Of a stretch of DNA of 64,000 nucleotides, positions 12,630 through 33,900 are shown piece after piece (positions within the stretch are counted from its first letter, which is position 1; each line of letters begins with the position of its first letter). The notes under the pieces are model-generated. The model searched no databases. It worked only from the letters and a program-made list of their open reading frames with translations, and was not told the DNA's origin. A program made the translations under genes and the position numbers. The stretch spans positions 83,930 through 147,929 of the IMG/VR virus record IMGVR_UViG_3300042881_003883. One strand, given 5' to 3'. This DNA is from a virus. Taxonomy: Duplodnaviria > Heunggongvirae > Uroviricota > Caudoviricetes.

Positions 12630-13355
12630 ATGAAAATAGCACTATGTTTACATGGTTTATTTGATTCAACAACTGATGGTAGTTCCAATGGTTATGATGG
12701 ATACAACCATATTAAAAAACACATTTTAGATATTACTGATACTGATGTGTTTATCCATAGTTGGGATATTGAAAAAGAGAGTGAAATCACTAAGTTATAT
12801 AATCCAACGTCAGCCATATTTGAAGCCCCAAAAGATTTTAATGAATTGGTAAATGGTAGAGGTTTAAATAATTTGAGTGGAACACCACGTTCACCTCAAA
12901 GTGTATTATCCCATCTTTATAGTGTAACTGAATCAATGAAGTTACCATATATAACTAATTCAGAATATGATATCATTATTAAAGCTCGTTTTGATTTGGG
13001 TAGAATAAATAGAGATACATCTGGACCAGGTAGAGGTAACCCATACCCAGTTCAATGTATTAATTTTCAAACTGAAATCGAATCTGATAAAATATATATG
13101 GCAGATTGGAATCATTTCAAAATGGGACCAGCGGATATGTGGTTTTATGGTACAATGGAAACTATGAAACCATTTACATCATTATATAATTCATTAGAGG
13201 AGCAAATGGAATTTAGAAGTCCATTTCACACATTTGCAGCTCAGATAGAAGGAAACCCTGGTGACCTTTCAAATTCCATAGCATTTTATAAATGGTGGAT
13301 GATACAAAATGGACTTTGGGAAAATAGAATAAATTTACAAACAATATGGGAATAG
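12630..13355 (+). CDS. hypothetical protein; paralog of the C-terminal domain of the 31724..33217 product
   Basis: KIALCLHG...DTDVFIHSWD...DIIIKARFD parallels KIALCFSG...DIDVYGSFWD...DIVIRARTD in the 31724 product. Confidence 0.5.
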   Translation: MKIALCLHGLFDSTTDGSSNGYDGYNHIKKHILDITDTDVFIHSWDIEKESEITKLYNPTSAIFEAPKDFNELVNGRGLNNLSGTPRSPQSVLSHLYSVTESMKLPYITNSEYDIIIKARFDLGRINRDTSGPGRGNPYPVQCINFQTEIESDKIYMADWNHFKMGPADMWFYGTMETMKPFTSLYNSLEEQMEFRSPFHTFAAQIEGNPGDLSNSIAFYKWWMIQNGLWENRINLQTIWE

Positions 13356-14044
13356 AATTACCAATAGTAGTGTACACTCACACCGATATGAAGGATGTAT
13401 GGCCAATGTTTTTTGGACAATTCAAAAAATATATCAATGGTTATAAAGTGTATGTGGCTGTTAATCAAATAGATACGCAAATACCATCGGATTATATCCA
13501 ATTGGTATATGATGATTCAAAATCATATACAGAGCGCTGGAGACAAATACTTCCACAAATTGAGGAAGATGTTATTATGTTTTTGCATGAGGATATGATA
13601 TTATTCGATACACCTAATTTTGAATTATTAGAAAAGTATTATGGTTATGTTAAAAGTGGAGTAGTTGAGAGTATTAAAATGATATTAGCAGGTGATTCAT
13701 TTCTTCCATCAACCATAGATAGTACATTAGTTACCAATCAATACGCAAAGTTTTCAATCCAACCAACACTAGTTAAAAAGGAAATATTTCAAAATTTAGT
13801 TAATACTATTGGTTCGTTAAATATTTGGCAATTTGAAGAAGCTATTATTTCATATGGTCGGGATTTTATGATACGAGTTGGTAGTGAGAAAAAAAGAGGT
13901 ATGTATCACTATGATAGTATTGTTTTCCCTTATATAGCAACTGCTATTAATAAAGGAAAATGGAATATGAGTGAATACCAAAAAGAATTGGATAAAATGT
14001 TTAATGAATATGGTGTAATGCCATTTGAAAGAGGAATAGTATGA
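13346..14044 (+). CDS. hypothetical protein (glycan locus)
   Basis: Operonic ORF. Confidence 0.5.
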   Translation: MGIELPIVVYTHTDMKDVWPMFFGQFKKYINGYKVYVAVNQIDTQIPSDYIQLVYDDSKSYTERWRQILPQIEEDVIMFLHEDMILFDTPNFELLEKYYGYVKSGVVESIKMILAGDSFLPSTIDSTLVTNQYAKFSIQPTLVKKEIFQNLVNTIGSLNIWQFEEAIISYGRDFMIRVGSEKKRGMYHYDSIVFPYIATAINKGKWNMSEYQKELDKMFNEYGVMPFERGIV

Positions 14045-15408
14045 TAAAATTAATAGTATTTGATTTAGATGGAGTTTTAGTAGAAGCTAAGAATATCCAC
14101 TTTGATGCACTAAATAATGCATTAGGACCTGAATATGAAATAAGTTGGGCTGAACACCTTTCAACTTATGATGGTTTGAAAACAAACCAAAAGTTGAATA
14201 TGTTGAGTGAACAAAAGGGATTACCAACTGAATTACATAAACAAGTATGGGATAAAAAACAAAAGTACACATTACAGATGTTAAAAGAGTTGAAACCAAA
14301 TCAAACTCTACAATCGGTAATGAATGCACTTTCTGAAGATGGATACAAATTAGCAGTTTGTTCTAATTCAATCAGAAAGACAGTTTTGACTGTACTTTCA
14401 AAATTGGGAATAATGGAGTTTATGGATTTAATTATCTCAAATGAAGATGTTAAGAATTCTAAACCACACCCTGAGATGTATTGGAAAGCAATTTCAATGA
14501 TGAGTTGTTTACCAGAAGAAACTCTAATTGTAGAGGATTCACCTTATGGGTTACTTGCGGCATCTCGTTCCAAATCTCATATTTTGAGAGTTAGAAATCC
14601 ACAAGAAGTAACCTATACGAACATATTTAAAAAATTAACTGAAATACAAATGGGTAAAATAGAAACAACACCTAAATGGGTAGATAAAAAGTTGAATGTA
14701 TTAATTCCAATGGCTGGTGCTGGAAGTAGATTCCAAACTGCTGGTTATACATTCCCAAAACCACTAATTGATGTAGAGGGTAAACCAATGATTCAAGTTG
14801 TGGTAGAAAATTTGAACATAGATGCAAATTACATATATGTAGTTCAGAAAGCACATAGAGAGCAATATAACTTAGATACCTTACTAAATTTAATTACACC
14901 TGGTTGTAAAGTAGTAGAAGTAGATACATTAACCGAAGGAGCTGCTTGTACGGCATTATTGGCTAAAGAATTTATTGATTCAGAGGCACCACTTTTCTTT
15001 GCAAATTCAGACCAATTTGTAGAATGGGATTCAAACGAATTCTTTTACAAAATGAATGAGAACGATTGTGATGGTGGAATACCAACATTTAAAGCAACTC
15101 ACCCAAAATGGAGTTTTGCTAAGTTAGATGATGATGGATTTGTAACCGAAGTACAAGAGAAAAACCCAATATCTGATTTGGCAACAATTGGTTTTTATTA
15201 TTGGAAACATGGTTCGGATTTTGTGAAATACGCTGAAGAGATGATTGAGCAAGATATTAGAGTGAATGGAGAATTCTATGTTTGTCCTGTTTATAACAAC
15301 GCAATTAAAGCTGGATTAAAGGTTAGAACATTCGATGTACCTAAAATGTGGGGATTGGGAACCCCTGAGGATTTAAAATATTATTTAGAAAATTATAAAA
15401 ATGATTAA
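14041..15408 (+). CDS. bifunctional HAD-superfamily phosphatase / sugar-phosphate nucleotidyltransferase fusion
   Basis: N-terminus VFDLDGVLVEA (HAD motif I DxDG), downstream SNS and K...EDS motifs; C-terminal half LIPMAGAGSRF...KPLIDVEGKPMI (nucleotidyltransferase G-x-G-x-R motif). Confidence 0.7.
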   Translation: MIKLIVFDLDGVLVEAKNIHFDALNNALGPEYEISWAEHLSTYDGLKTNQKLNMLSEQKGLPTELHKQVWDKKQKYTLQMLKELKPNQTLQSVMNALSEDGYKLAVCSNSIRKTVLTVLSKLGIMEFMDLIISNEDVKNSKPHPEMYWKAISMMSCLPEETLIVEDSPYGLLAASRSKSHILRVRNPQEVTYTNIFKKLTEIQMGKIETTPKWVDKKLNVLIPMAGAGSRFQTAGYTFPKPLIDVEGKPMIQVVVENLNIDANYIYVVQKAHREQYNLDTLLNLITPGCKVVEVDTLTEGAACTALLAKEFIDSEAPLFFANSDQFVEWDSNEFFYKMNENDCDGGIPTFKATHPKWSFAKLDDDGFVTEVQEKNPISDLATIGFYYWKHGSDFVKYAEEMIEQDIRVNGEFYVCPVYNNAIKAGLKVRTFDVPKMWGLGTPEDLKYYLENYKND

Positions 15409-16228
15409 AACAGCTACTATAATAACAACTCATAATCCTAAATTTCATCATGCATTTAATTTATTGGAATCCTATATAAAATATGTAGAGAAACCACATG
15501 ACTTATATTTTATTTTTACAAATGAAAATGAAATGTTTGATTTTAATTGGAAATCCGAATACAAATATATGGATAATTATAAACCATTAATATTGGATGA
15601 ATCATTGAGAGATAAAAAAAGTATTGTTAATGTTAAAAAAATGTTTGCATTACAATCTATAATTAACGATTATGATTATGTTGGTGTATATGATTGTGAA
15701 TCTGAATTTGTTAAAAATTGTAACTTAGATACCATATATGAAAATATTGCATCATATGATTATGTAAAGGCTAACGAATCTGAAATTGGAGGTAATATAA
15801 TAAAGTTAGCAGCAGGATATATGGGATTGGATACTAATGAAATATTAATAAATCAAACTAAAAATTATTCTCTATATTGGTGGTTTAGTGAAATACCTGT
15901 TTATAAAAAAGAATTGTTTATAGATTTCTATGATTGGTATAAATCATCTGAAAATTTAAATACATTACAATCAGAATATTATGCATTTGATTATTTGGTT
16001 TATATAATATGGTTAGTTTGTTTTAAAAATTTTAAAATCAAACATATTGAATTACCATTTAAATCCGAAATTTCAGCAGTTGAGGATTTTAGATTAACAC
16101 AAGAACAAAAGGATATTGTTAGTAATGAATTTCAATCGTATTGGTCTGTAAATGGTGTAAACCATAAAAAGTATGATAATATAAAATTAATAGTACATTC
16201 GGATAATGCTGGATATATAGATAAATAA
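15401..16228 (+). CDS. hypothetical protein (glycan locus)
   Basis: Operonic ORF, AT-rich. Confidence 0.5.
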   Translation: MIKTATIITTHNPKFHHAFNLLESYIKYVEKPHDLYFIFTNENEMFDFNWKSEYKYMDNYKPLILDESLRDKKSIVNVKKMFALQSIINDYDYVGVYDCESEFVKNCNLDTIYENIASYDYVKANESEIGGNIIKLAAGYMGLDTNEILINQTKNYSLYWWFSEIPVYKKELFIDFYDWYKSSENLNTLQSEYYAFDYLVYIIWLVCFKNFKIKHIELPFKSEISAVEDFRLTQEQKDIVSNEFQSYWSVNGVNHKKYDNIKLIVHSDNAGYIDK

Positions 16229-16238
16229 AAAAATAATA

Positions 16239-17477
16239 ATGACAAATTATCAAAGAGTTACCTTTATTATACCTTGTAGGAATAATTTAAGATTTTTACA
16301 ACAAGCCGTTTCATCAATTGAAGAACATTATGGTGATGGGCATGATATTGTGATAATGGATGATGCATCAACTGATGATAGTTGGGAATGGATTGAAAAA
16401 TATGGTTCGGATAAGAATCATATTTTAACTTATAGAAATGGTGGAAAAGATAGAGTTGGGCATACTGTTTTATACGATATAGGTATTCAATTAGCTAGAA
16501 CACCAATCGTAACAATATTACATTCAGATATGATTGTAACACCAAACTATGTTGGGAATATGTTGAAACACCTTAAACCAATGAGTGTAGTTTCAGCCAC
16601 TAGAATCGAACCACCATTGCATCCACCTGGTCCTGAAAAATATGTTAAGAATTTTGGAATGGATGTGGATGAGTTTACTGATGCCAAATCCAATTTCTTA
16701 AAATTTGTATATGAAGCTGAGTATCTAAATGAGGGTAAAGTTACTAATGGTATCTTTGCACCTTGGATGTTATATAAAGAAGATTTTGTATCTATTGGTG
16801 GGCATGATAAATTATTTGCACCTATGGAGTTGGAAGATTCTGATATATTTAATAGGTTCCATTTGAATGGGTACCAATTAATTCAGAGTAGAGATGCATT
16901 TGTATATCATATGACTTGTAGAGGTAGTAGATTTAAAGATGGTATCGAAATAGAAAAAGAGATACCACTACCAGATGGTACAATATGGTTCAAACCAAAA
17001 GACTCTGAAGAATATTTACAACTAAGAGCAACCAAATTTAGAGAGTGGTGGAGAAAGTGGCATACTGATGTTTTACATGATGATAATATGATGCCAATAG
17101 TTCCTAAAAGATATTCAACATCATTTATAATTGAAAATTGTAGACCACAACTACTTTCAATATTAGAACCCTGGTGTGATGATATCTATGTAGATTGTGA
17201 ATTTAACTCATATATTATGAATGAAGATTCTAAATCGGAATATATAATATCCGATAAAGTTCATTCAATTGGTAATGATGTTAAAAATAATGTACACATT
17301 AAATTTGATGCTAGTAAATTAACTAATCAACATTTTACTGAATTTATTAAAAAATTACCATTTATTATTGAACAAACTGGGCAATTGGGTACATTCAATT
17401 GGGATATATTTGAAATAAGTATTTTATCTTTAAATACAATTGACATGATTAAACCTCACTTTAAAAACGTATTTTAA
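16239..17477 (+). CDS. glycosyltransferase family 2 with extended C-terminal domain
   Basis: RVTFIIPCRNNLRFLQQAVSSI...IVIMDDASTDDS (classic GT2 N-terminus and DXD). Confidence 0.7.
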   Translation: MTNYQRVTFIIPCRNNLRFLQQAVSSIEEHYGDGHDIVIMDDASTDDSWEWIEKYGSDKNHILTYRNGGKDRVGHTVLYDIGIQLARTPIVTILHSDMIVTPNYVGNMLKHLKPMSVVSATRIEPPLHPPGPEKYVKNFGMDVDEFTDAKSNFLKFVYEAEYLNEGKVTNGIFAPWMLYKEDFVSIGGHDKLFAPMELEDSDIFNRFHLNGYQLIQSRDAFVYHMTCRGSRFKDGIEIEKEIPLPDGTIWFKPKDSEEYLQLRATKFREWWRKWHTDVLHDDNMMPIVPKRYSTSFIIENCRPQLLSILEPWCDDIYVDCEFNSYIMNEDSKSEYIISDKVHSIGNDVKNNVHIKFDASKLTNQHFTEFIKKLPFIIEQTGQLGTFNWDIFEISILSLNTIDMIKPHFKNVF

Positions 17478-18361
17478 TGAAAAAAAAGACATTAGTATGT
17501 ATCCATATAATGCCATCTGAAATAGAAATGTTTCAAAGGTTTATGGAACAATATAGAAAAGCATTATCGTATTGTAGAGAATATGATGTTACTATAAAAG
17601 CAACTTTGAATTTAAACCCAAAACTTACGGATTGGGAAAATAGTGAGTTAAAGCAAGATTACTTTATGAATATCTTCAATGCTCAGTTTCAATATAAAGA
17701 ATTGAAAAATATAAATCAAATTATATTAGATGAATCTATGTGGGGTACAACTCAACAAAAGAGAGAATCTATTAAAATTGATTACTTTGACCAATTTATA
17801 TTTTGTGATACGGATATTGTGATGCATGAACATCAGTTAATATACCAATTACAAGCAGCAGAAAGATTGGAGGGTATGTATATACTTTCACCATCAATTC
17901 CAAAGTGGTGGGATATGAGTTGGGATGGTTTAGTAAGTGATTCAATGAAAAATGCCGAAGCATTTAGTGAAGAAACTATGTTAGGTGCATTTACACAAAC
18001 TCCAACTAATATGCAACTTAAGAAGTTACCATATATTAAATTTGGATGTGGTATGCATACTCTATATTCTAAATCATTTTGGCAGTTTGTTGGAATACCT
18101 GAATCATTTGGTGGTTATGGACCCGAAGATACTTATGGTATGACAGCTGGTAGAATAGCATTAGAAGCTGGTTATGTAGTGAATCAATACGTTTTAGATG
18201 GATTATACATTACAGAAGATTATATAAATAGAGTTCCATCATTTGATGGTAAAATTAAAACTATTGACAAAAAATCTGAATTTTACAAAAACGCAGAAGC
18301 AATTGGTAGAGATGAATTGGTGGCATTTGTAGAAAGATTAAAACAAAAAAGTATCACTTAA
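17477..18361 (+). CDS. hypothetical protein, last gene of glycan operon
   Basis: ATG overlaps the upstream stop; CDTDIVMHE could be a DXD-like motif. Confidence 0.5.
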   Translation: MKKKTLVCIHIMPSEIEMFQRFMEQYRKALSYCREYDVTIKATLNLNPKLTDWENSELKQDYFMNIFNAQFQYKELKNINQIILDESMWGTTQQKRESIKIDYFDQFIFCDTDIVMHEHQLIYQLQAAERLEGMYILSPSIPKWWDMSWDGLVSDSMKNAEAFSEETMLGAFTQTPTNMQLKKLPYIKFGCGMHTLYSKSFWQFVGIPESFGGYGPEDTYGMTAGRIALEAGYVVNQYVLDGLYITEDYINRVPSFDGKIKTIDKKSEFYKNAEAIGRDELVAFVERLKQKSIT

Positions 18362-18666: not shown

Positions 18667-18673
18667 TAACATA

Positions 18674-18700
18674 AAGCCTCCCAATTGGGGGGCTTTTATT
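18674..18700 (+). terminator. rho-independent terminator
   Basis: AAGCCTCCC-AATT-GGGGGGCTT hairpin followed by TTTTATTG; closes the glycan operon. Confidence 0.7.
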
Positions 18701-19327: not shown

Positions 19328-19645
19328 ATGCAATCAGAATCAATTTACGCAGTAATAATAACACTAATAACAGTATTAGGTTCAGCTGGAGCTTGGAGGT
19401 TTTATGAGAAAAAAGCCGAAAGACAGGAAAAGGAAGATGAATTTATTAAACATGATTGCTCTAAGAGAATTGATAGATTGGAACAATTGTTAGAAAGAAG
19501 TAGTCAAGAAAAAGATGAACTTAGGGATAAGATACTAAATCTTACTAGAGATTTGGCAGAATTAACTATTAAAGTTCAATATCTTGAAATGGAAAATAAA
19601 AAATTGTTAGAATTAAATACTCAATTTCTGAAACAAAGCTCCTAA
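19328..19645 (+). CDS. N-terminal TM anchor plus coiled-coil protein
   Basis: IYAVIITLITVLGSAGAW helix, then heptad-rich region (LEQLLERSSQEKDELRDKILNL...). Confidence 0.5.
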   Translation: MQSESIYAVIITLITVLGSAGAWRFYEKKAERQEKEDEFIKHDCSKRIDRLEQLLERSSQEKDELRDKILNLTRDLAELTIKVQYLEMENKKLLELNTQFLKQSS

Positions 19646-19706
19646 TTTATTAGGATATATCAGAAAAAAATTGTATATTTGTATGTTAACAATCAAACAA
19701 GAAAAT

Positions 19707-22272: not shown

Positions 22273-22548
22273 ATGATACGATTAAGTAAATTAATAAACG
22301 AAGCATCTGTTGTTGAATTAAGTGAATTAACTCCAATTCAACAAAAGCAAATTAAAGCATTCGAATCAATAATCGGTGGAAAGGCCGAAATGATTTGGGA
22401 TGGTATACATGGTTTTGTAGTTGCTATAAAATTACAAAATTATCATGGTGCATATCGATTTGATGTAGATACTATGAAAAAATTAATAGCAGCAAAAGTT
22501 CGTTGGGTTGAAGAAGATTTGGGTAAACGAGTTAGTATAGGATTTTAA
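22273..22548 (+). CDS. small protein with N-terminal MIRLSKLINE motif (CTS-like family)
   Basis: Track ORF 22213..22548 overlaps the upstream gene; ATG at 22273 sits 1 nt after the upstream stop and begins MIRLSKLINEAS, the family motif. Confidence 0.5.
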   Translation: MIRLSKLINEASVVELSELTPIQQKQIKAFESIIGGKAEMIWDGIHGFVVAIKLQNYHGAYRFDVDTMKKLIAAKVRWVEEDLGKRVSIGF

Positions 22549-22563
22549 TAACAAAATATAATT

Positions 22564-23544
22564 ATGATACAATTAAAACAATTGATAAATGAGGCTAGTG
22601 ATTTCACTGCTAAGAGTAAGGAAAGTGGAAAGTTAGTACACTTCAAATCAAAAGATTCTTATGATAAAGCTATTAAGGCTGGTTCACATGAGGACCCAAC
22701 TGCAAAAACATCAAAGGGTGGTGATGCTAAGTCTGGTGTGAATATCTTTAATACACCATCTAAAGATGAACCAAAATCGGATACACCCAAAGCAACTCCT
22801 GCTAGTTTAGCTGTTGATAAAGTTGTTTATAATACGAGAACTAAATCAGTTGGTATTGTAAGAATGGCAGATGAAAGAGGTGAAACAAAAACCGATGCAG
22901 ATGGTAATGTAAATACATCTGAATTAGAACCATACAACCCAACAAAGTATCCACATCAAAAAGATGCTAAAGTTGCACCATCTACTCAAAAAGAGGTAGA
23001 TAGTAGAGGTTTATGGAATCCATTTGCACCTGATAGTGATGAACCAAAAGCAGCTGAACCAAAAGCACCAAGAAAAGGTGACCCAACGGTAAATAAAGAA
23101 GTTAGAAAGATAGCTCAAAAGATGGGAATTTCATCTGATAAGATGGATAAAACTGAGTATCAAAAGAAAATGGCTCAAGCAGCAGTTGCGGCACTTACTG
23201 ATTCAAACTTCCATAGTGAAGCAAGAGAGTTAGTAGCAGCATTAGAAGGGAAACCTGAATTAGCAGAGAAGCCAGATTACCCCAACCCATCAGACCCTAA
23301 GTTCAGAGAAAAGATGGATGTAATCAGAGCTAAATATGATTCAGTATATAGTTCACCTGATGATGATGCACAAGATTTGGGGGTAGCCGCATCACAAGCA
23401 GCCGGATGGAGTGGAGATACCGCAATTGATGGAATTGCATTTGAATTAAGAATGAACGGATTTCATAAATTAGCAGATAAGATACAATCAGTAATTAAAG
23501 AAGGTAAAGTTAATAGAACTTCACTTAAGAACTTAATGAAATGA
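22564..23544 (+). CDS. Lys/Pro-rich protein with N-terminal MIQLKQLINE motif; paralog of the 44029..44886 product
   Basis: MIQLKQLINEASDFTAKSKESGKLVHFKSKDSYDKAIKAGSHEDP aligns with MIKLMDLLNEESFVAKSTKTGKVVNFGSRETRDAAIKSGDYEEP. Confidence 0.6.
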   Translation: MIQLKQLINEASDFTAKSKESGKLVHFKSKDSYDKAIKAGSHEDPTAKTSKGGDAKSGVNIFNTPSKDEPKSDTPKATPASLAVDKVVYNTRTKSVGIVRMADERGETKTDADGNVNTSELEPYNPTKYPHQKDAKVAPSTQKEVDSRGLWNPFAPDSDEPKAAEPKAPRKGDPTVNKEVRKIAQKMGISSDKMDKTEYQKKMAQAAVAALTDSNFHSEARELVAALEGKPELAEKPDYPNPSDPKFREKMDVIRAKYDSVYSSPDDDAQDLGVAASQAAGWSGDTAIDGIAFELRMNGFHKLADKIQSVIKEGKVNRTSLKNLMK

Positions 23545-24395
23545 TAAAATTAAATCAGTTAACTGAAAATAAAAACACCCAACCCAACTTAAATGAGGGG
23601 TTGGGTGATGCTATTTCTAAGATTAGGAATTTAGCAATAAGGATAGCTGATAAGAAAGCTGGAAATGCGGTAAAGCATCTTAACTTAGATAAAATTAGTA
23701 AAGATAAACCGGATACAAAGGCAGCAATGAATAAAGCTCAATCGGTTTTTTCAAAGCAAACTGGAATGAATGAGGATTTACGAAGTACAATTAATAAATT
23801 TTCAGTTAATGTAGGAAGTAAATCAGCATTGGGAGCAATTATATCAGCTGTATTAACTGCTGGTAGTTGGACTCAATACGCAACAGCATCATTTTCACAA
23901 TGGTATTATTCTGAAATCCAAAGATTAGCAGAACCTGAGGTAATGAAAATAATGGAAGATGTATATGGTGCACAAGCAGCTGAAGGTTCTTTATGGGCTA
24001 AGTTGGGAATGTACGCATTTTTTATATTTTTTATAATTGCAGTTGTAATGTTTGTATCTGCTAAAATAACACAAAATAGAAAAACCGAAAATACGATGAT
24101 AAAATTAACTGATTTGATGTCAGAATCAAACGAAACTTATTTCAAATCATTTACCGATGCGGCATCAGCTGCTAAAGCATACGCTATGAAAAAAGGGTAT
24201 GAAATTGATGAGAATGATTGGCAAACACAAATAGCAATGGGAGGTAAGTATTCTCGTTCAAGACCATCTATTGGTAAGACTAATTCATTTACTGTTGGAT
24301 TATTGAGAAATGGTAAACCCCAAAGAAAGGCACTACATATTTCAGTATATGGTATGGCTAGTGGAAACTTTGAATTAACTAATTATATTAATTGA
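23541..24395 (+). CDS. protein with N-terminal MIKLNQLTE motif, central TM segment and a second internal MIKLTDLMSE motif
   Basis: AFFIFFIIAVVMFVSA hydrophobic helix; internal ...ENTMIKLTDLMSESNE at about residue 178 (ATG at 24096). Confidence 0.6.
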   Translation: MIKLNQLTENKNTQPNLNEGLGDAISKIRNLAIRIADKKAGNAVKHLNLDKISKDKPDTKAAMNKAQSVFSKQTGMNEDLRSTINKFSVNVGSKSALGAIISAVLTAGSWTQYATASFSQWYYSEIQRLAEPEVMKIMEDVYGAQAAEGSLWAKLGMYAFFIFFIIAVVMFVSAKITQNRKTENTMIKLTDLMSESNETYFKSFTDAASAAKAYAMKKGYEIDENDWQTQIAMGGKYSRSRPSIGKTNSFTVGLLRNGKPQRKALHISVYGMASGNFELTNYIN

Positions 24396-24399
24396 TATA

Positions 24400-24666
24400 A
24401 TGAGTAAAGAAAAATCTTTGGTTACAGTTTATGTTAAAAATGGTGATATAAATAAAGCTCTTAAGATATTCAAAAACAAAACATTTGAATCAGGTCATCT
24501 TTTGGAGTTGAGAGATAGGAAGGAATTTACTAAACCAACTACTAAAAGGAGAAAGCAAATGAAAGATGCTATTCGTAGGCAAGAATTATTAACTATATTG
24601 GATAAAATATCCAATGGAGATACAACAATAAAGGTTCCGGAAAAGAAAGTTAAAAATAAAAAGTAA
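24400..24666 (+). CDS. rpsU: 30S ribosomal protein bS21 homolog (phage-encoded)
   Basis: 88 aa basic protein; RDRKEFTKPTTKRRKQMKDAIRRQ corresponds to the S21 R..E.YEKPSE.RKR...A signature. Confidence 0.75.
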   Translation: MSKEKSLVTVYVKNGDINKALKIFKNKTFESGHLLELRDRKEFTKPTTKRRKQMKDAIRRQELLTILDKISNGDTTIKVPEKKVKNKK

Positions 24667-24693: not shown

Positions 24694-27204
24694 ATGGCAG
24701 CAAGTATAAAAATATCAGATTTAAGTCAGTTAGTATCAGGTTCCATAGTTGGTACAACTAAGATACCAGTTGTGGATGGTGGGACAACGTTATATGCACA
24801 GGCATCATCTATAAAAGCATACGTTAGTTCGGATTTAGCAACGGATGCTGAATTAGCATCGCAAATATCAGCGGTTAACTCCACCATTAGTGGATTAACA
24901 ACTGCTAATATCTCTGAGAACGCATCTTATAAATATTATACCGATGCTAGGGTAACTGATAGATTAAACGTACTTAATGTATTATCTGGTTCATCTACTT
25001 CATTGATTGTTTCTGATGGAAGTACAAACGTAACTGCTGTTGATAAAATTACATTTAATAATGCAACTGTTTTCAATGCTGGTAGTGGTGATGTGACTGT
25101 AACTGTACCATCTTCATTAACTGTTGGTAATGGTTCAGGAATACCTATTAGTAGTGTTGATACTATTACATTTCCAGGCGCAACAATTGCTGATAACACT
25201 AATGGTGATATAACTGTTACTATATCAGGTACAGCTACGAATATATCTGCATTAAATTCATTCACATCATCAGCAAATTCATCTATTAATTCAATTAATT
25301 CAACTACTGGTTCTATTAATTTAACTACTGGTTCTATTAATTCATTTACTGGTTCTATTAGAGGTGAGGTTAATAGTATTGAAGCATATACTTCATCATT
25401 AAAAGCAGCATCTATTGTATCATCATCACAACAAATAACTAATTTAGGTTTTTTAAGTAGTTCATTTGGTCTAATATCATCATCACAACAAATAAGTGAT
25501 TTTGGGTTTATAAGCGCATCTGGTGGTACAACAATTCCTCAGGGGACTGTTTCTGGTTCTCAACAAATAGTTGGTTTAGGATTTGTAACTACAAGTTCAT
25601 TAGCAACTGGGCCAAATTTCCATATAATATCACAATCTATAATAGCTACTGACCCTATTGATTCTAATTTATTATTATCATCGGTATATGTAGATAAAAC
25701 CAGAACAATAACATTTTCACAATTTTCAGCATCGTTAGATTCTAGGTTTGGAGCTGGTGGTGGTTCTGATTATATTTCAAATGTTACATTTGGTAATAAT
25801 AGATTAACATTTACTGGGGTTGGTTCAGCATTTAATGATTTTGTTCAATTTCCAAATGGATTGGTATCATCATCCGCACAATTAAATGGATTTGGATTCC
25901 TTACATCAACAGATGTTAATTCAACATACATAGTTAATAGATTACCAAGCGGAGTTATTAGTGGTTCAACTCAAATAACTAATTTAGGATTTGCAACAAC
26001 ATCATCTTTGATTGGTAATGGGTTTATATCATCATCCGCACAAATTACATTAACAAATTCTAACACTGGTGGATTTGATACATCCTATGTTGCTGAAAAT
26101 GTAAATTATAAATATTATACTGATGCTAGAGTTCAAAATGTACTAAATGGATTAACATTAGTATCTGGTTCATTCGGATTACCATCTGGTTCGGTTAGTT
26201 CATCATCTCAAATAGATTACCAACTAATATATAACAAACCAGTATTCTATACTGGTTCTAATAATGTTTTTATTACATCTGGCTCCTCTGGATATAGTAG
26301 TCCTTGGGTTATTATTGAGGTACTATCACCTACATTAACTCAATTTTCATCATTAGTATCATCGATTAGTAGTTCATTATTAACTAATGGTATAGTATCA
26401 TCATCAACACAAATATCCAATTTAGGATTTGTGAGTAACGGAAGTTTAGCAGGATTAAATAATTGGACGGGTTCAAGTGGTGGATTTGGGTTAACATCAT
26501 CATCATTAGCAAGTAGAATTGTTAATTTATCAAATGTAGTATTAACCGCATCTGCACAAATTGATTATGATTTTATTCAAAATACACCAACATTCGCACC
26601 TGGAGATGGTATTTTAATATCTCAAAGTTTAGAGAACGCAATTACTATAACAAATAACGCATCGGCACCTACGTGGAATAGTATAACATCAAAACCAAAT
26701 AATTTGGTATCATCATCATTACAAGTAGATGGATATAATTTATTTGCTAAGACTGGTTCTACAAATACATTCTATGGTAATCAAACTGTAAATGGTGAAG
26801 TTCAAACTACCGATTTAACTGTAACTGGTATTAGTGACTTTCAAGGAGCAGCTACCTTTGCTGGTACATCTACATTTAATAACCCTGTTATTAATGAAAT
26901 AACAGCCATATCAGTAAATGGATTTACGGCATCTTTAGATTTTAGTATAGGTAATTTATTTGAAATAAATTTAGACGGAAATGCTATAACACACATATCA
27001 GCTAGTAATATATCATTCGGTCAAACTGCAACGGTATTAATTACAACTGCTAATCAATCTACTGCATCATTTAGTTCAAACGTAAGACAACCATTTGGTT
27101 CATTCTACACCGCATCTTTGGTTGGTAGTATTGATATTATAACACTTACAAAATTCAATTCTACTGATGTTTATGTAACTTCGGTAAAAAATAATTTTGT
27201 ATAA
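24694..27204 (+). CDS. tail fiber / receptor-binding protein, Ser/Thr-rich with internal repeats
   Basis: 836 aa, ~30% Ser/Thr; repeated (S/G)S(S/T)QQI(T/S)xLGF peptide at least 7 times; duplicated ENxxYKYYTDARV module; 21-bp DNA tandem repeat around 25300-25365. Confidence 0.7.
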   Translation: MAASIKISDLSQLVSGSIVGTTKIPVVDGGTTLYAQASSIKAYVSSDLATDAELASQISAVNSTISGLTTANISENASYKYYTDARVTDRLNVLNVLSGSSTSLIVSDGSTNVTAVDKITFNNATVFNAGSGDVTVTVPSSLTVGNGSGIPISSVDTITFPGATIADNTNGDITVTISGTATNISALNSFTSSANSSINSINSTTGSINLTTGSINSFTGSIRGEVNSIEAYTSSLKAASIVSSSQQITNLGFLSSSFGLISSSQQISDFGFISASGGTTIPQGTVSGSQQIVGLGFVTTSSLATGPNFHIISQSIIATDPIDSNLLLSSVYVDKTRTITFSQFSASLDSRFGAGGGSDYISNVTFGNNRLTFTGVGSAFNDFVQFPNGLVSSSAQLNGFGFLTSTDVNSTYIVNRLPSGVISGSTQITNLGFATTSSLIGNGFISSSAQITLTNSNTGGFDTSYVAENVNYKYYTDARVQNVLNGLTLVSGSFGLPSGSVSSSSQIDYQLIYNKPVFYTGSNNVFITSGSSGYSSPWVIIEVLSPTLTQFSSLVSSISSSLLTNGIVSSSTQISNLGFVSNGSLAGLNNWTGSSGGFGLTSSSLASRIVNLSNVVLTASAQIDYDFIQNTPTFAPGDGILISQSLENAITITNNASAPTWNSITSKPNNLVSSSLQVDGYNLFAKTGSTNTFYGNQTVNGEVQTTDLTVTGISDFQGAATFAGTSTFNNPVINEITAISVNGFTASLDFSIGNLFEINLDGNAITHISASNISFGQTATVLITTANQSTASFSSNVRQPFGSFYTASLVGSIDIITLTKFNSTDVYVTSVKNNFV

Positions 27205-27219: not shown

Positions 27220-27227
27220 TATATTTG
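27220..27227 (+). promoter_or_regulatory. Bacteroidetes-type -7 promoter box TATATTTG (AATTAATTTCGTATATTTG class)
   Basis: Same 19-mer context recurs at 48803-48821, 55252-55270 and 61736-61755. Confidence 0.55.
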
Positions 27228-27244: not shown

Positions 27245-27715
27245 ATGTCAAAAGGTAGAATCTATTGGTTTACTGGTGAAGCTAGTAATAGTAGAGAATT
27301 GGGAAAAAGACTTCACACACTTCTCCAATCTGAAAAAAGAAATTGGAGAAGGGATGTATTTTACTTAGATAGTGAAGAGTTAAGAAAGATTACAAATAAT
27401 ACAGATTATACTGATTCTGGTACAATCAAACACATAAGACATTTACAAATGATTGCCCAATACCTACACACAACGGGTTGTGATGTAGTAGTATCTGATA
27501 TATCACCATATAAAGAGGTTAGAGAGGAGTTTAAACGTAGAATAGGTTTGACTAACTTTTCTGAATTTTATGTTCACAATTCAAAGCAACCATTGGATTA
27601 TTCCACATATGGTGCACCAACCGAAAACTTCATATCAGTTGATACATTCCGAAATAATTTTGAACTTTCATTTGGGAGTATAGTTAATTATCTAATAGAT
27701 AATCATAAATTATAA
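27245..27715 (+). CDS. APS-kinase (CysC)-like protein with degenerate P-loop
   Basis: IYWFTGEASNSRELG vs CysC VLWFTGLSGSGKST; FYLDSEELR vs YLLDGDNVR; DVVVSDISPYKEVREEFKRRIG vs [23 protein letters not shown]; Walker A Lys/Ser-Thr absent. Confidence 0.55.
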   Translation: MSKGRIYWFTGEASNSRELGKRLHTLLQSEKRNWRRDVFYLDSEELRKITNNTDYTDSGTIKHIRHLQMIAQYLHTTGCDVVVSDISPYKEVREEFKRRIGLTNFSEFYVHNSKQPLDYSTYGAPTENFISVDTFRNNFELSFGSIVNYLIDNHKL

Positions 27716-27767: not shown

Positions 27768-28340
27768 ATGAAAATGGAAGATGTTACAAATGAGGAACCA
27801 ATGTTCCCAAACTTTGACCCAACCAAAGATTTATCGAAAGCACCCAAACAACGAACTAAACGTGGGTTAGGTGCAAAACCTCTAATGGAATCTGAAATTA
27901 GAGATGTACAACAAAAAGCACGTTCCGCTATGGAAGCTGCTAGAATGTTGGGAGTATCATACAATACATATAAGAAATACGCAAGAGATTATGGTATCTT
28001 TGAAGATTTGAAGAATCCATTTGGACTTGGTATAACCAAAGGTTCATCTGATAAGGGTAGTACCCATGCATTGGATGATATCTTAGCTGGTATGTATCCC
28101 AATTACCCAATACATAAATTCAAAAAGAGATTATTGAATAATGGATATATGTTAGAAAAATGTAATAGTTGTGGATTTGAAGAAAAACGGGTAACCGATT
28201 TCAAGGTTCCATTAGTATTAGATTTTATTGATGGAGATAGATGCAACCACAAATATGAGAACCTTAGAATGCTATGTTTTAATTGCTCATTCCTTATAAA
28301 TGGGAACCTTACAGGTCCAAAAGCGGAGTACGAATATTAA
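27768..28340 (+). CDS. HNH endonuclease with N-terminal HTH-like region
   Basis: CNSCGF...CNHKYENLRMLCFNC (HNH Cys/His/Asn pattern). Confidence 0.7.
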   Translation: MKMEDVTNEEPMFPNFDPTKDLSKAPKQRTKRGLGAKPLMESEIRDVQQKARSAMEAARMLGVSYNTYKKYARDYGIFEDLKNPFGLGITKGSSDKGSTHALDDILAGMYPNYPIHKFKKRLLNNGYMLEKCNSCGFEEKRVTDFKVPLVLDFIDGDRCNHKYENLRMLCFNCSFLINGNLTGPKAEYEY

Positions 28341-31727: not shown

Positions 31728-33217
31728 TAAATTACGTTTACATAAAAATACCAGCATCCGATTTTGGGTTATTTGAAAATTTATTTCATGGCAAAAGAGC
31801 CAATGAATACAAAATACATTCAGCAGGACATAGTTGGAACTATCCTACTAAAATAAAAGGTTGGCAAGATTGGGATTACCCACAACAAACACCTAATATA
31901 TTTAGAGATGTAGCTACATTTAAGTTAAGTCCAAATGATGTATTTATTACAACTATTAGAAATCCATTTAATATTTTGGTAGATTATTATAAAGAAAACT
32001 GGGCTAATCTAAAGACTCATTATAATCTAGCTGATATAAATTCAGTTGATGATTTCCAAAAATTTGTGGATATCTATCTAAATAAATCTATTGTATTTCA
32101 TGCACCCGCATTTCGTAACTCAATGTTTTCACAATTAAAGGATATCAATGGTAATTGGTTATTTGATGATAATAGTATTATAATAAGGAGTGAATATATT
32201 AATGAGGATTTAGCTAAATTCTCAGAAACAATAAATTTACCAATATCGCTTGAATTCACACAACCAAAGGTTGATAACGTTATAACATATAGAGATGACC
32301 AAATTGAGAGATTAACAAAATTATGGAAATCTGACTTGGATTATTTCGGATATTCATTTAATAAATCAGAAATGAACACAAAAAAACAAACTAACAGTTT
32401 ACATAAGCCAAAGATAGCATTGTGTTTCTCTGGTGAAATAAGAGATTTAGATAGAACTAAGGAGTATTGGGGTGAATTGATTAAGAAGTATGACATTGAT
32501 GTATATGGTTCATTCTGGGACACTTATAATACTGAATGTGGTGATACTATTGAAAACTTTCATAGGATATACAATGTTAAGAAGGTGGAGGTTGAAAATT
32601 ATAATTCATTTAATGAATCTACCTTATCTATTCTAAGAATTGGTATTGAACCACCAACTTCATTATTGTATTTTTTAAGAGATTCCTGTGTGAACTTTGG
32701 TACAATGAGTATGTGGTACAAAATTTGGAGAGCAAATTTATTAACAAAGGATTTGGGTATTGATTATGATATTGTAATAAGAGCTAGAACTGATACTTAT
32801 TTTGATGATAATTTAGATATATCCATTAATGATATGTTAAATTTACCACATGGTAGGGTTAGGTTAAATAATCACGATAAATCGGAGGGTATATCGGACC
32901 TATTTGCATATGGTTCACCAAAGATGATGGATTATTATTCAACGTGCTATTTTTTCATAATGAATTATTTAACTGAAGGGTATTATTTGGTTCCACATGA
33001 GCATATGTTGCATATTCATATGAACAAAATAAACGTTCCAATTAGATTTATGGTTAATAACATAACAATCACAAGAACATCCAGAGGAACTGAGGATGAA
33101 GTATATTGTAATGGTGTTGATATAAATGAAGAGATTTTACAATCGGATTTTATGGAACTGGAACCACAAAAAGATTTATTCTACAAAGCAAATATTAAAG
33201 AAAAATTCAAAATATGA
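31724..33217 (+). CDS. two-domain protein: sulfotransferase-like N-terminal region plus C-terminal domain paralogous to the 12630..13355 product
   Basis: ITTIRNPFNILVDYY resembles the sulfotransferase 3'-PB motif RNPxD..Y; C-terminal KIALCFSG...DIDVYGSFWD...DIVIRARTD paralogy. Confidence 0.5.
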   Translation: MINYVYIKIPASDFGLFENLFHGKRANEYKIHSAGHSWNYPTKIKGWQDWDYPQQTPNIFRDVATFKLSPNDVFITTIRNPFNILVDYYKENWANLKTHYNLADINSVDDFQKFVDIYLNKSIVFHAPAFRNSMFSQLKDINGNWLFDDNSIIIRSEYINEDLAKFSETINLPISLEFTQPKVDNVITYRDDQIERLTKLWKSDLDYFGYSFNKSEMNTKKQTNSLHKPKIALCFSGEIRDLDRTKEYWGELIKKYDIDVYGSFWDTYNTECGDTIENFHRIYNVKKVEVENYNSFNESTLSILRIGIEPPTSLLYFLRDSCVNFGTMSMWYKIWRANLLTKDLGIDYDIVIRARTDTYFDDNLDISINDMLNLPHGRVRLNNHDKSEGISDLFAYGSPKMMDYYSTCYFFIMNYLTEGYYLVPHEHMLHIHMNKINVPIRFMVNNITITRTSRGTEDEVYCNGVDINEEILQSDFMELEPQKDLFYKANIKEKFKI

Positions 33218-33900
33218 AAAAGTTTATTTTTATAACCATTTCCGTAGTATTACTACCAATATTTGGATATTCTCAAACCAAATTGGACTCACTTGATTTT
33301 GATAAGTACATACATTCAATTACAGGTAGGTTTTCAACTAAATACCATTCAACCATTGATACCACCAGAGGTGATGTATTAGTAAGGACTGTAGAGTATG
33401 ATACACATGATGAAGCGACTCTAATCTATACTCAGCAAGGTGAACTAATTGAGGGTAAGTACTATCCATATAGACAACGTATATACGCAATATACCAAAT
33501 TGATGATTATTACATTGGTTTAAACATATTCTCAATACCAAATGAAGTTGATTTTTGGAATGTACTAACTGATACCAAAGTTGCGTCTGGTAAGTTTAAT
33601 TTAGATGATATAACATTTAAAGTTGATACCAACAAACTAAAGGCACTTGCCATCTATGACCTACCATATAAAGTGGGGTGTGATATAAAGATATACAAAG
33701 ATAACTTAGGGGCATTTAGAGGTAGTACCAATGAATCGGATTGTAAAGGCTCATTTAAGGGAGCAACCTACACTACAACTGAGTTTGTAATATACCAACA
33801 CGAAGTTATTAGTTGGGAGAGGGGTTGGGATGATTCTGGAACTCAAATATGGGGGCCAAAAACAGGTCCATATATCTACTCAAAAGTTGCAAATCACTAA
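33214..33900 (+). CDS. secreted protein (signal peptide)
   Basis: N-terminus MKKFIFITISVVLLPIFGYSQ, a typical Bacteroidetes signal peptide. Confidence 0.55.
   Translation: MKKFIFITISVVLLPIFGYSQTKLDSLDFDKYIHSITGRFSTKYHSTIDTTRGDVLVRTVEYDTHDEATLIYTQQGELIEGKYYPYRQRIYAIYQIDDYYIGLNIFSIPNEVDFWNVLTDTKVASGKFNLDDITFKVDTNKLKALAIYDLPYKVGCDIKIYKDNLGAFRGSTNESDCKGSFKGATYTTTEFVIYQHEVISWERGWDDSGTQIWGPKTGPYIYSKVANH

What the first reader, a model, noticed from the sequence alone, without database searches (positions are those of the whole stretch)
24400..24666. Phage-encoded ribosomal protein bS21 directly upstream of the tail fiber gene
An 88-aa basic ORF carries the S21 KP(S/T)xxRKR signature (KEFTKPTTKRRKQMKDAIRR). 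bS21 is the ribosomal protein most often captured by phages, especially those of Bacteroidetes and SAR11. It probably biases host ribosomes toward phage mRNAs. That fits the leader-dependent translation suggested by the conserved 5'-UTR cassette, and fits Bacteroidetes' SD-independent initiation, in which bS21 participates.
Basis: partly seen in the sequence, partly recalled or inferred. Interest (0 to 1): 0.6.

Follow-up and report, generated by a model that had tools for sequence, protein, structure and literature searches.

The report
Phage-encoded ribosomal protein bS21 gene
A very large uncultured phage carries its own well-conserved copy of the small ribosomal protein bS21, a known kind of phage gene, but this copy lacks the tyrosine typical of the Bacteroidota-type bacteria the phage appears built to infect.

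Summary
The ORF at 24400-24666 (+), 88 aa, is a real bS21 homologue. It lies on a huge phage: all genes are on one strand, replication genes are T4-like, and the identical protein occurs on contigs up to 477 kb. It is under purifying selection (dN/dS 0.13). Phage bS21 is already well documented, so this is a new member of a known kind.

- The window has almost no Shine-Dalgarno (SD) sequences (5% of genes, below background), A-rich leaders, and 12-13 Bacteroidota-type TAnnTTTG promoters. This supports an SD-independent, Bacteroidota-like host.
- The protein has Arg59 where Bacteroidia bS21 has the anti-SD-sequestering Tyr54, and a 41-residue, net +9 C-terminal part. It does not mimic Bacteroidia bS21.
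- Relatives 54-57% identical sit between the prohead protease and the major capsid protein in T4-like head modules. No cellular genome holds a close relative, so this is an old phage-resident lineage.

"Tail fibre" for the downstream 836-aa ORF is plausible but unproven. The CCCCTAAAA cassette is unrelated to this gene.

The parts
24400..24666 (+). Phage bS21 gene, 88 aa including the stop codon. It has no SD: predicted pairing of its leader with the 16S 3' tail is -2.3 kcal/mol. Its start lies 4 nt after the stop of the upstream ORF.
   Evidence: HMM and PDB matches; leader pairing; dN/dS 0.13 against an 86%-identical relative.
24421..24588 (+). Conserved bS21 core, residues 8-63. It holds the KPT motif (K45-P46-T47, nt 24532-24540) and predicted helices 17-31, 33-41 and 48-71.
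   Evidence: Pfam match to residues 9-61. AlphaFold2 model with mean pLDDT 83.
24574..24576 (+). Codon CGT = Arg59. This is the position aligned with Tyr54 of Flavobacterium johnsoniae bS21, the residue that stacks on A1534 and helps sequester the anti-SD.
   Evidence: HMMER alignment to 9i5v. Bacteroidota sequences. MAFFT column check. The role of Tyr54 comes from PMC7797042 and PMC9976891.
24589..24663 (+). C-terminal extension, residues 64-88 (LTILDKISNGDTTIKVPEKKVKNKK). It is absent from Bacteroidota bS21, conserved within the phage family, and under purifying selection (dN/dS 0.10).
22273..24395 (+). Three upstream ORFs: 22273-22548, 22564-23544 and 23541-24395. They share an N-terminal leader (MIRLSKLINEAS, MIQLKQLINEAS, MIKLNQLTENK). 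The first two are homologous to ORFs lying between the prohead protease and S21 in related phages. They are candidate internal head proteins and are probably co-transcribed with S21.
   Evidence: context of relatives.
24694..27204 (+). 836-aa Ser/Thr/Gly-rich ORF 27 nt downstream of S21. It is fibre-like, with a conserved N-terminal ~100 aa and swapped C-terminal parts among homologues. It is not proven to be a tail fibre.
   Evidence: No family hit. AlphaFold2 pLDDT of 42.6 is uninformative.
19639..19681 (+). Nearest upstream Bacteroidota-type promoter-like site (...TTAGGATATATCAGAAAAAAATTGTATATTTG, with the -7 element TATATTTG at 19674-19681). It is the candidate start of the transcription unit that contains S21.
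   Evidence: Consensus taken from PMC6847099.
27185..27227 (+). Next Bacteroidota-type promoter-like site (-7 element TATATTTG at 27220-27227), just after the fibre-like ORF. It marks the likely end of the S21-containing unit.
18673..18696 (+). Intrinsic-terminator-like hairpin (10-bp stem with 6 G-C pairs, followed by a T-run) upstream of the gene block that includes S21.

Best explanation
The ORF encodes a functional, phage-resident homologue of small-subunit ribosomal protein bS21.

Shown:
- Family membership.
- Location on a huge T4-like phage genome.
- Purifying selection on both the core and the C-terminal tail.
- Wide occurrence in metagenomes.
- Absence of close cellular relatives.
- Relatives embedded in T4-like head-assembly modules.
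- An SD-free gene set driven by Bacteroidota-type promoters.

Inferred: the protein is made from a polycistronic message together with putative virion proteins. It then occupies the bS21 site on the platform of the host 30S subunit, replacing the loosely bound host bS21 or filling subunits that lack it. bS21-containing ribosomes are the form that initiates efficiently on SD-less mRNAs in Bacteroidia, so the phage copy would keep ribosomes competent for the SD-less, A-rich phage leaders during infection, and possibly retune them.

This copy has Arg instead of the anti-SD-stacking Tyr54 and a long basic tail. It is therefore expected to treat the 16S 3' tail and the upstream mRNA differently from host bS21. 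That is the likeliest source of any selectivity.
For: Identity. Predicted secondary structure fits bS21.

Phage setting:
- Clamp loader, PolB and other phage genes.
- The identical protein occurs on 113 contigs up to 477 kb.

Functionality:
- dN/dS is 0.13 overall, 0.14 for the core and 0.10 for the tail.
- The N-terminus and tail are conserved in the family.

Phage-resident lineage:
- Four relatives at 54-57% identity are all on phage contigs. Three lie between Peptidase_S77 and Gp23.
- A scan of 185,579 species genomes with the family's two motifs found only two Bacteroidota (Marinoscillum) bS21 genes, at 38-42% identity, and one 2.4-kb phage-like contig.

SD-independent host:
- SD core in 5% of genes against 10% background. 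Median leader-anti-SD pairing is -1.3 kcal/mol against -3.4 for random windows.
- TAHHTTTG in intergenic DNA: 12 on the coding strand, 2 on the other, 1.7 in shuffles. It is not enriched in pelagiphage, cyanophage or OM43-phage controls.

Literature:
- Pelagiphage bS21 enters E. coli 70S ribosomes (PMC6375957).
- Phage bS21 is co-expressed with structural genes (PMC9723584).
- F. johnsoniae ribosomes lacking bS21 initiate worse on SD-less mRNAs (PMC9976891).
Against: - No expression, ribosome-binding or host data exist for this phage.
- The host is inferred only from regulatory signals.
- The protein lacks the two Bacteroidia-specific bS21 features, so it may bind a Bacteroidia platform poorly or behave like the Y54A mutant.
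- Purified E. coli ribosomes carrying pelagiphage bS21 were only ~5% as active in vitro (PMC6375957). Incorporation need not mean stimulation.
- The structural comparison to solved bS21 was not significant.
- The window contains no SD-bearing subset of phage genes that a freed anti-SD could favour. Two genes pair at <= -10 kcal/mol against ~3.5 expected by chance.
Confidence: 0.6

Rival explanations
1. Simple supply or maintenance. The phage copy has no selectivity. It only replaces host bS21 once host rpsU expression stops after host shut-off, keeping 30S subunits replete so that SD-less mRNAs are still translated.
For: - bS21 is essential in F. johnsoniae, and ribosomes lacking it initiate about 2-fold worse on SD-less mRNAs (PMC9976891).
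- The phage gene has no SD, so it would escape the host's SD-dependent rpsU autoregulation.
- It is under purifying selection.
Against: - The protein differs from Bacteroidota bS21 at the anti-SD contact and carries a conserved 25-residue extra tail under selection. A pure stand-in would not need this.
- Other SD-poor phage contigs do carry host-like Tyr/His versions.
Confidence: 0.2
2. The host is not a Bacteroidia. It is another SD-poor lineage with similar promoters, for example another member of the Fibrobacterota-Chlorobiota-Bacteroidota group, whose own bS21 lacks Tyr54. The phage protein would then be an ordinary mimic of host bS21.
For: - Chlorobia are SD-poor and their bS21 lacks Y54 (PMC9976891).
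- Host assignment here rests only on promoter and leader statistics.
- The window carries bilin genes (CpeT, heme oxygenase, bilin reductase) that are otherwise typical of cyanophages and pelagiphages.
Against: - No cellular genome among 185,579 species representatives carries the family's motifs apart from two Marinoscillum genes (Tyr-type, 38-42% identical) and a phage-like contig.
- Relatives of the same S21 family occur in phages whose genes do use SD (L009 71%, L011 45%). The Arg, long-tail type is therefore not tied to one host type.
Confidence: 0.15
3. The protein no longer works on the ribosome. It has been co-opted as a small basic nucleic-acid-binding protein of the virion or prohead, for example packaged with the DNA, as its neighbourhood of head-module genes might suggest.
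For: - In relatives the gene lies between the prohead protease and the scaffold/major capsid genes.
- In the window it follows ORFs with capsid-targeting-like leaders.
- Chen et al. raise virion packaging as a possibility (PMC9723584).
Against: - S21 itself lacks the shared N-terminal leader of its neighbours.
- The full bS21 core, including the KP(S/T) motif and basic helix, is conserved at equivalog-level scores.
- Pelagiphage bS21 does enter ribosomes (PMC6375957).
Confidence: 0.05

Closest known systems
bS21 of freshwater Bacteroidetes-infecting huge phages (Chen et al. 2022, PMC9723584). The 735-kb phage LR756501 and IMG/VR loci L027-L044 carry the same type.
   Same: - A phage-encoded bS21 on large T4-like or huge phage genomes.
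- The gene set is SD-poor.
- The gene is linked to head-assembly genes, either directly in relatives or through homologous neighbours in the window.
- The C-terminal part is conserved within a clade.
   Different: Those proteins are 61-66 aa and keep an aromatic residue (Tyr, sometimes His or Phe) at F. johnsoniae position 54 (PMC9723584). The window protein is 88 aa, has Arg at that position, and has a 41-residue C-terminal part with net charge +9. It is not adjacent to protease or capsid genes in this genome.
bS21 of Pelagibacter phage HTVC008M and Methylophilales phage Melnitz (Kyanoviridae-like myophages; Mizuno et al. 2019, PMC6375957)
   Same: - Marine T4-like phages.
- A basic residue (Lys or Arg) at the Tyr54 position and a basic C-terminal part.
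- Melnitz is the best cultured-phage match, at 43% identity over residues 8-60.
- Ribosome incorporation has been shown for the HTVC008M protein.
   Different: Those phages use SD sequences (47% and 68% of genes) and lack Bacteroidota-type promoters. Their S21 genes lie among small early-type or replication genes. Sequence identity to the window protein is low.
Cellular bS21 of Bacteroidia (F. johnsoniae 7JIL, P. gingivalis 9I5V, Marinoscillum)
   Same: - The same fold family.
- P. gingivalis bS21 is the best match among solved structures (33.8 bits).
- It works in an SD-independent translation system like the one the phage's genes appear adapted to.
   Different: The cellular proteins have Tyr54, a short weakly basic C-terminal part (18-21 aa, net +3 to +5) and, in many species, a very strong SD upstream of rpsU for autoregulation (PMC9976891). 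The phage gene has none of these three features.

Membership tests
Ribosomal protein bS21 (Pfam PF01165 / TIGR00030) | Profile-HMM score above the curated family cut-off over the full domain | tested here: met
   PF01165 50.5 bits against 27, profile positions 1-54 of 55. TIGR00030 equivalog 45.5 bits against 28.95. PHROG 21469 E 8.4e-10.
Ribosomal protein bS21 (Pfam PF01165 / TIGR00030) | Small basic protein with a KP(S/T) motif between an N-terminal helical part and a long basic C-terminal helix | tested here: met
   88 aa. K45-P46-T47 is present. Predicted helices at 17-31, 33-41 and 48-71, pLDDT 83.
Ribosomal protein bS21 (Pfam PF01165 / TIGR00030) | Three-dimensional similarity to solved bS21 chains | tested here: inconclusive
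   Foldseek against the PDB returned only mitochondrial bS21m chains, at E 0.4-10 and TM about 0.37. bS21 is extended and shaped by rRNA, so a free model is not expected to superpose.
Ribosomal protein bS21 (Pfam PF01165 / TIGR00030) | Physical incorporation at the 30S platform | not testable with these tools
   Shown only for the pelagiphage HTVC008M protein in E. coli (PMC6375957).
Bacteroidia-type (anti-SD-sequestering) bS21 | Aromatic residue at F. johnsoniae position 54 that stacks on A1534 | tested here: not met
   Arg59 aligns with Tyr54. The family alignment has Arg in at least 90% of members.
Bacteroidia-type (anti-SD-sequestering) bS21 | Short, weakly basic part C-terminal of KP(S/T) | tested here: not met
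   41 residues, net +9, against 18-21 residues, net +3 to +5, in F. johnsoniae, P. gingivalis and Marinoscillum. The criterion comes from PMC7797042.
Bacteroidia-type (anti-SD-sequestering) bS21 | Exceptionally strong SD upstream of the gene (autoregulation) | tested here: not met
   Leader-anti-SD pairing is -2.3 kcal/mol. The criterion of < -13 kcal/mol comes from PMC9976891.
Phage-encoded ribosomal protein genes (auxiliary / host-takeover class) | Encoded on a bona fide phage genome | tested here: met
   All genes are on one strand. There are T4-like clamp loader, PolB, ligase and HNH genes. Relatives lie next to portal, prohead protease and Gp23.
Phage-encoded ribosomal protein genes (auxiliary / host-takeover class) | Purifying selection on the phage copy | tested here: met
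   dN/dS 0.13 against L045. This is one pair, with 18 synonymous and 12 non-synonymous differences.
Phage-encoded ribosomal protein genes (auxiliary / host-takeover class) | Co-location and co-expression with late structural genes | tested here: inconclusive
   Two upstream ORFs are homologous to head-module ORFs of relatives, and a fibre-like ORF follows. No protease or capsid gene is adjacent here, and expression timing cannot be tested.
Phage tail fibre (claim for the downstream ORF 24694-27204) | Match to a tail-fibre family or fold | tested here: not met
   No Pfam, PHROG or GenBank-phage hit. The AlphaFold2 pLDDT of 42.6 is too low to search with.
Phage tail fibre (claim for the downstream ORF 24694-27204) | Modular architecture: conserved N-terminal anchor and exchangeable C-terminal parts | tested here: met
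   Many homologues share only the first ~12% at 48-63% identity. Some end in C1q or ice-binding-type domains.

The most novel reading that the evidence does not exclude
A megaphage adapted to an SD-blind Bacteroidota host carries an 'SD-world' bS21 (Arg at the Tyr54 position, long basic tail). It inherited this protein within a phage lineage that also infects SD-using hosts. Once the protein enters the host 30S subunit it would create specialised ribosomes. Their 16S 3' tail would be handled differently from the host's, for example left un-sequestered as in the Y54A mutant or gripped by the tail. These ribosomes would also escape the host's rpsU autoregulatory counter-measure. This would be a mechanistically distinct way of taking over translation, different from the host-mimicking bS21 described so far for Bacteroidetes phages.
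Probability: 0.2. Interest if true: 0.7.

Novelty: new member of a known kind. Interest (0 to 1): 0.4.

Why it matters
Phage bS21 is the commonest virus-encoded ribosomal protein, but its effect on translation is still unknown. This lineage gives a sharp contrast case. Most bS21 genes on SD-poor phage contigs keep the Bacteroidia-specific tyrosine. This abundant phage, up to 477 kb, does not, although its promoters and leaders look Bacteroidota-adapted.

The contrast makes an open question directly testable in the existing F. johnsoniae genetic and in vitro system: does a phage bS21 merely mimic the host protein, or does it change how the anti-SD and mRNA leaders are handled? The conserved linkage with head-module genes also supports the view that phage bS21 is tied to virion production.

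Tried and rejected
- Megablast of 8 kb around the gene against GenBank phages found no match. The phage has no close cultured or deposited relative.
- tblastn of the 836-aa ORF against phages found nothing. Pfam and PHROG scans, also at permissive E-values, found nothing. The AlphaFold2 model had pLDDT 42.6 and was too poor for a fold search. 'Tail fibre' therefore stays an inference.
- Foldseek of the S21 model against the PDB gave only non-significant bS21m hits.
- Rfam found no RNA family in the whole window. The S21 leader fold is not unusual, z = -1.0.
- The CCCCTAAAA link is rejected: there are only three copies, 33 kb away.
- T4-type late promoter TATAAATA is not enriched: 21 found against 18 expected. 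Sigma-70-type promoters are fewer than in shuffles: 41 against 59.7.
- I looked for a subset of phage genes with strong SD that a freed anti-SD could favour. Two genes pair at <= -10 kcal/mol against ~3.5 expected by chance, so there is no evidence for one.
- A cyanobacterial or SAR11 host, suggested by CpeT, heme oxygenase and bilin reductase, is considered less likely. Control cyanophage and pelagiphage regions use SD (34% and 47%) and lack TAHHTTTG enrichment.
- The genome-collection scan is limited to two family-specific peptide patterns. It shows the absence of close cellular relatives but is not a phylogeny.

Full report
**1. The observation**

The window holds an 88-codon ORF on the + strand, with ATG at 24400 and a stop ending at 24666. 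Its product is MSKEKSLVTVYVKNGDINKALKIFKNKTFESGHLLELRDRKEFTKPTTKRRKQMKDAIRRQELLTILDKISNGDTTIKVPEKKVKNKK.

- It matches Pfam Ribosomal_S21 (PF01165) over the whole profile at 50.5 bits (cut-off 27, E 1.6e-13).
- It matches NCBIfam TIGR00030, an equivalog model, at 45.5 bits (cut-off 28.95).
- It matches PHROG 21469 'ribosomal protein S21'.
- Its significant matches among solved structures are almost all bS21 chains. The best is 9i5v_9 at E 2.7e-7, which is the Porphyromonas gingivalis ribosome (PMC12123416).

**2. What the window is**

- All ORFs of 90 aa or more that look like genes are on the + strand. G+C is about 31-32%, and there are no tRNAs.
- Precomputed Pfam hits on an identical 270-kb metagenomic contig (JGI 3300042460) show PolB just upstream of the window. 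Within it lie a clamp loader, a PD-(D/E)XK nuclease and a long block of glycosyltransferase and sugar-modifying genes. Also present are an APS-kinase-like gene, an HNH endonuclease, CpeT, DNA ligase, thymidylate synthase, heme oxygenase with a ferredoxin-dependent bilin reductase, GroES/GroEL and a Band_7 protein.
- The clamp loader matches 2,774 phage records. The best are a 484-kb uncultured huge phage, then Microcystis, Ralstonia, Pelagibacter and Synechococcus myophages, at 36-45% identity.
- There is no near-identical DNA in GenBank phages.
- The identical S21 protein is found on 113 contigs, the longest 477 kb. An 89%-identical protein is in the Tara Oceans set.

This is an abundant, uncultured, very large T4-like phage, probably marine.

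**3. Is the gene functional and phage-resident?**

Against an 86%-identical relative (L045), dN/dS is 0.13. It is 0.14 for residues 1-63 and 0.10 for residues 64-88. This is a single pair, but both the core and the extra tail are clearly constrained.

The homologue search returned 115 proteins, nearly all 70-109 aa. They share SGHLLELRDRKEFTKPTT and a basic tail. I inspected four relatives 54-57% identical over the aligned part, and all lie on phage contigs.
- Three sit inside T4-like head modules: portal, prohead protease Peptidase_S77, 2-4 ORFs, S21, an acidic scaffold-like ORF, then Gp23.
- The fourth (L010) shares the window's context: HAD/nucleotidyl-transferase, GT2, S21, then a large ORF.

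I scanned one genome for each of 185,579 bacterial and archaeal species with the family's two most conserved peptide patterns. It found only two Marinoscillum (Bacteroidota) bS21 genes, at 38-42% identity, and a 2.4-kb contig binned with a Flavobacterium MAG. On that contig S21 is followed by the same acidic scaffold-like ORF, so it is a phage fragment.

The family is thus an old phage-borne bS21 lineage, not a recent capture from a sequenced host. This agrees with Chen et al., who found that phage and bacterial bS21 cluster apart and that bS21 usually lies 2-6 genes from the prohead protease and capsid genes (PMC9723584).

**4. The immediate neighbourhood**

- The S21 start codon is 4 nt after the stop of the upstream 284-aa ORF.
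- The genes from about 19.7 kb to 27.2 kb are tightly packed.
- A strong terminator-like hairpin lies at 18673-18696.
- Bacteroidota-type promoter-like sites lie at 19674 and 27220.

S21 is therefore probably an internal cistron of a unit that ends with the 836-aa ORF. This is an inference.

Two upstream ORFs (22273-22548 and 22564-23544) are homologous to ORFs that lie between the protease and S21 in relatives. They share an N-terminal leader M-I-(K/R/Q)-L-x-x-L-x-x-E with the 284-aa ORF, with an ORF at 44029, and with the corresponding ORFs of L009, L011 and L046. From my knowledge of T4, this resembles capsid-targeting sequences and the (L/I)-x-E cleavage sites of the gp21 prohead protease. 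These may therefore be internal head proteins. That reading is a lead, not a test. S21 itself does not carry this leader.

**5. The 'tail fibre'**

The 836-aa ORF has no Pfam, PHROG or GenBank-phage match. Its AlphaFold2 model is unusable, with pLDDT 42.6.

Its homologues behave like fibre or receptor-binding proteins. More than 500 metagenomic relatives exist. Many share only the first ~12% at 48-63% identity with different remainders. A few end in C1q or ice-binding-type domains. The invariant N-terminal ~100 residues are followed by Ser/Gly-rich repeats.

'Fibre-like virion protein' is a reasonable inference. 'Tail fibre gene' is not demonstrated.

**6. Translation signals and host**

SD usage:
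- Only 5 of 98 crude gene calls have an AGGA/GGAG/GAGG core at -20 to -4, against 10% of random windows.
- Predicted pairing of leaders with the 16S 3' tail has a median of -1.3 kcal/mol, against -3.4 for random 25-mers. SD-like sequences are avoided.
- Leaders are A-rich: 0.58-0.64 A at -10 to -13, 0.61-0.62 at -3 and 0.55 at -6. This is the pattern described for Flavobacterium johnsoniae (PMC6847099).
- With the same script, controls gave SD cores in 47% of genes for Pelagibacter phage HTVC008M, 68% for Methylophilales phage Melnitz, 34% for Prochlorococcus phage P-SSM4, and 0-9% for two cellular Marinoscillum loci.

Promoters:
- The Bacteroidota -7 element TAnnTTTG occurs 13 times on the coding strand in the 3.2 kb of intergenic DNA. 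It occurs twice on the other strand and 2.3 +/- 1.4 times in shuffles.
- The refined TAHHTTTG gives 12, 2 and 1.7.
- The sites share an extended consensus with a TTTG/TTAG-containing upstream part about 20 nt away. This matches the -33/-7 TTTG/TANNTTTG promoter of Bacteroidetes (PMC6847099).
- The control phages and L009 show no enrichment.

The host is most likely a Bacteroidota, or at least a member of that wider group. This remains an inference, because no direct host link was available.

**7. What kind of bS21 is it?**

Bacteroidia bS21 is marked by Tyr54, which stacks on A1534 where the 16S 3' tail turns into its pocket. It is also marked by a short, weakly basic C-terminal part (PMC7797042). 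Y54A or C-terminal truncation frees the anti-SD. It raises translation of strong-SD mRNA 3-5 fold and lowers initiation on SD-less mRNAs. Host rpsU carries an extreme SD for autoregulation (PMC9976891). All Bacteroidetes-phage bS21 of Chen et al. keep an aromatic residue at that position (PMC9723584).

In the window protein:
- The aligned residue is Arg59. Arg is nearly invariant in the family.
- The part after KPT is 41 residues with net charge +9. In F. johnsoniae, P. gingivalis and Marinoscillum it is 18-21 residues with +3 to +5.
- The gene has no SD.

- SD-poor contigs mostly carry 61-66-aa proteins with Tyr or His at this column. These are the IMG/VR loci L027-L044, which represent only about 6-7 distinct protein sequences. 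The 735-kb phage LR756501 also has Tyr, though it sits at an intermediate SD fraction of 0.20.
- SD-using contigs all carry Lys or Arg.
- The window's sub-lineage (window, L045, L010, L012 and roughly L046) is the exception: SD-poor contigs with Arg and a long basic tail. One further SD-poor locus, L026, carries Leu at this column.
- Members of the same S21 family also occur in SD-using phages (L009 71%, L011 45%, L018-L020).

The protein is therefore a bS21, but it is not a Bacteroidia-type bS21.

**8. Mechanism**

The identity, phage residence, selection and regulatory context are shown. The rest is inferred.

bS21 binds late and loosely at the 30S platform, next to the 3' end of 16S rRNA and the mRNA exit. 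A pelagiphage bS21 enters E. coli ribosomes (PMC6375957). The most likely function is incorporation into host 30S subunits during infection, so that ribosomes stay able, or become better able, to initiate on the phage's SD-less, A-rich leaders. The missing Tyr and the added basic tail make it likely that the 16S 3' tail or upstream mRNA is handled differently than with host bS21.

Whether this gives selectivity for phage mRNAs is unknown. It could instead supply bS21 after host shut-off, or defeat the host's rpsU feedback. The window contains no SD-bearing subset of genes that would profit from a freed anti-SD.

The rivals are a pure supply role, a non-Bacteroidia host whose bS21 is of this type, and a non-ribosomal or virion role. 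They are listed with their tests.

**9. The leader cassette**

CCCCTAAAA occurs three times. It sits inside three ~75-nt repeats at about 57599-57670, 58028-58098 and 60215-60288. Each repeat combines a promoter-like TTG...TA(T/A)(G/A)TTT(A/G) part with a leader ending at a start codon. It is a local feature of three small genes. It has no visible connection with S21.

**10. Comparison and verdict**

Phage-encoded bS21 is well described (PMC6375957, PMC7162821, PMC9723584). The sources already label this protein family as ribosomal protein S21. The finding is a correct identification of a new member of a known kind.

The added value lies in three results:
- the host-type inference from promoters and leaders;
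- the demonstration that this lineage is phage-resident and ancestrally part of the head module;
- the tested absence of the Bacteroidia bS21 signatures in a phage that otherwise looks Bacteroidota-adapted.

The last point gives a concrete experiment in an existing system.

Interest is 0.4. The most novel reading not excluded is specialised ribosomes made with a 'foreign-type' bS21, at probability about 0.2.

Noticed in passing
window 2490, 19674, 27220, 34381, 36614, 39861, 41492, 41513, 46055, 48814, 55263, 60238, 61749 (+ strand): Thirteen intergenic TAnnTTTG elements, mostly TATATTTG, share an upstream TTTGG/TTAGG-ATAT-TC-A part about 20 nt away. This matches the Bacteroidota -33/-7 promoter consensus. 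Counts are 13 on the coding strand, 2 on the other and 2.3 in shuffles.
   Followed up: yes
whole window (98-106 crude gene calls): Shine-Dalgarno sequences are essentially absent and even avoided: 5% of genes against 10% background. Leaders are A-rich at -10 to -13, -6 and -3. T is frequent at -1 (0.60).
   Followed up: yes
window 57599-57670, 58028-58098, 60215-60288: Three copies of a ~75-nt conserved promoter-plus-leader lie upstream of three small ORFs. They end in GATAATTAAACCCCTAAAA(T/C)T(A/G)A...ATG. This is the 'CCCCTAAAA cassette'.
   Followed up: partly
window 22273-22548, 22564-23544, 23541-24395 (also an internal ATG at 24096), 44029-44886; L009 5540 and 6490; L011 3791, 5750, 6613; L046 4981: A set of otherwise unrelated ORFs shares an N-terminal leader M-I/K-K/R-L-x-x-L-x-x-E(A/E). 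In related phages they lie between the prohead protease and S21. The leader resembles T4 capsid-targeting sequences and prohead-protease cleavage sites, so these may be internal head proteins.
   Followed up: partly
window 33214-33900, 53790-54302, 54290-54931: CpeT-like, heme oxygenase and ferredoxin-dependent bilin reductase genes are present. The reductase is closest to that of Pelagibacter phage Mosig (32.5% identity), then to cyanophage PcyA. Bilin genes are unexpected in a phage whose regulatory signals look Bacteroidota-adapted.
   Followed up: partly
window 55559-55855 and 55862-57463: A phage-encoded GroES/GroEL pair (Cpn10, Cpn60).
   Followed up: no
window 3653-18361: A ~15-kb block of glycosyltransferases, an epimerase, an aminotransferase, an acetyltransferase, a methyltransferase and a HAD/nucleotidyl-transferase gene. 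This is a large surface-glycan or nucleotide-sugar module, partly syntenic in relatives L010 and L046.
   Followed up: no
window 27245-27715, 27768-28340, 46052-47407: An APS-kinase-like P-loop protein follows the fibre-like ORF and is conserved there in L045 and L046. Also present are an HNH endonuclease and an N6/N4 DNA methyltransferase fused to an I-TevI-type DNA-binding domain.
   Followed up: no
L006 (NZ_CAXBFR010000196.1, 2.4 kb, binned as 'uncultured Flavobacterium sp.'): This is the only 'cellular' full-length relative of the S21 family. The contig is a phage head-module fragment: S21 followed by an acidic scaffold-like ORF identical in type to those of L009, L011 and L012. It is either a binning artefact or a weak hint of a Flavobacterium association.
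   Followed up: partly
L009 and L011 versus window, L010, L012, L045: The same phage S21 family occurs in phages whose genes use SD (45-71%) and in phages whose genes do not (0-8%). The family apparently spans hosts with different initiation modes. None of the phage S21 genes themselves has an SD.
   Followed up: partly
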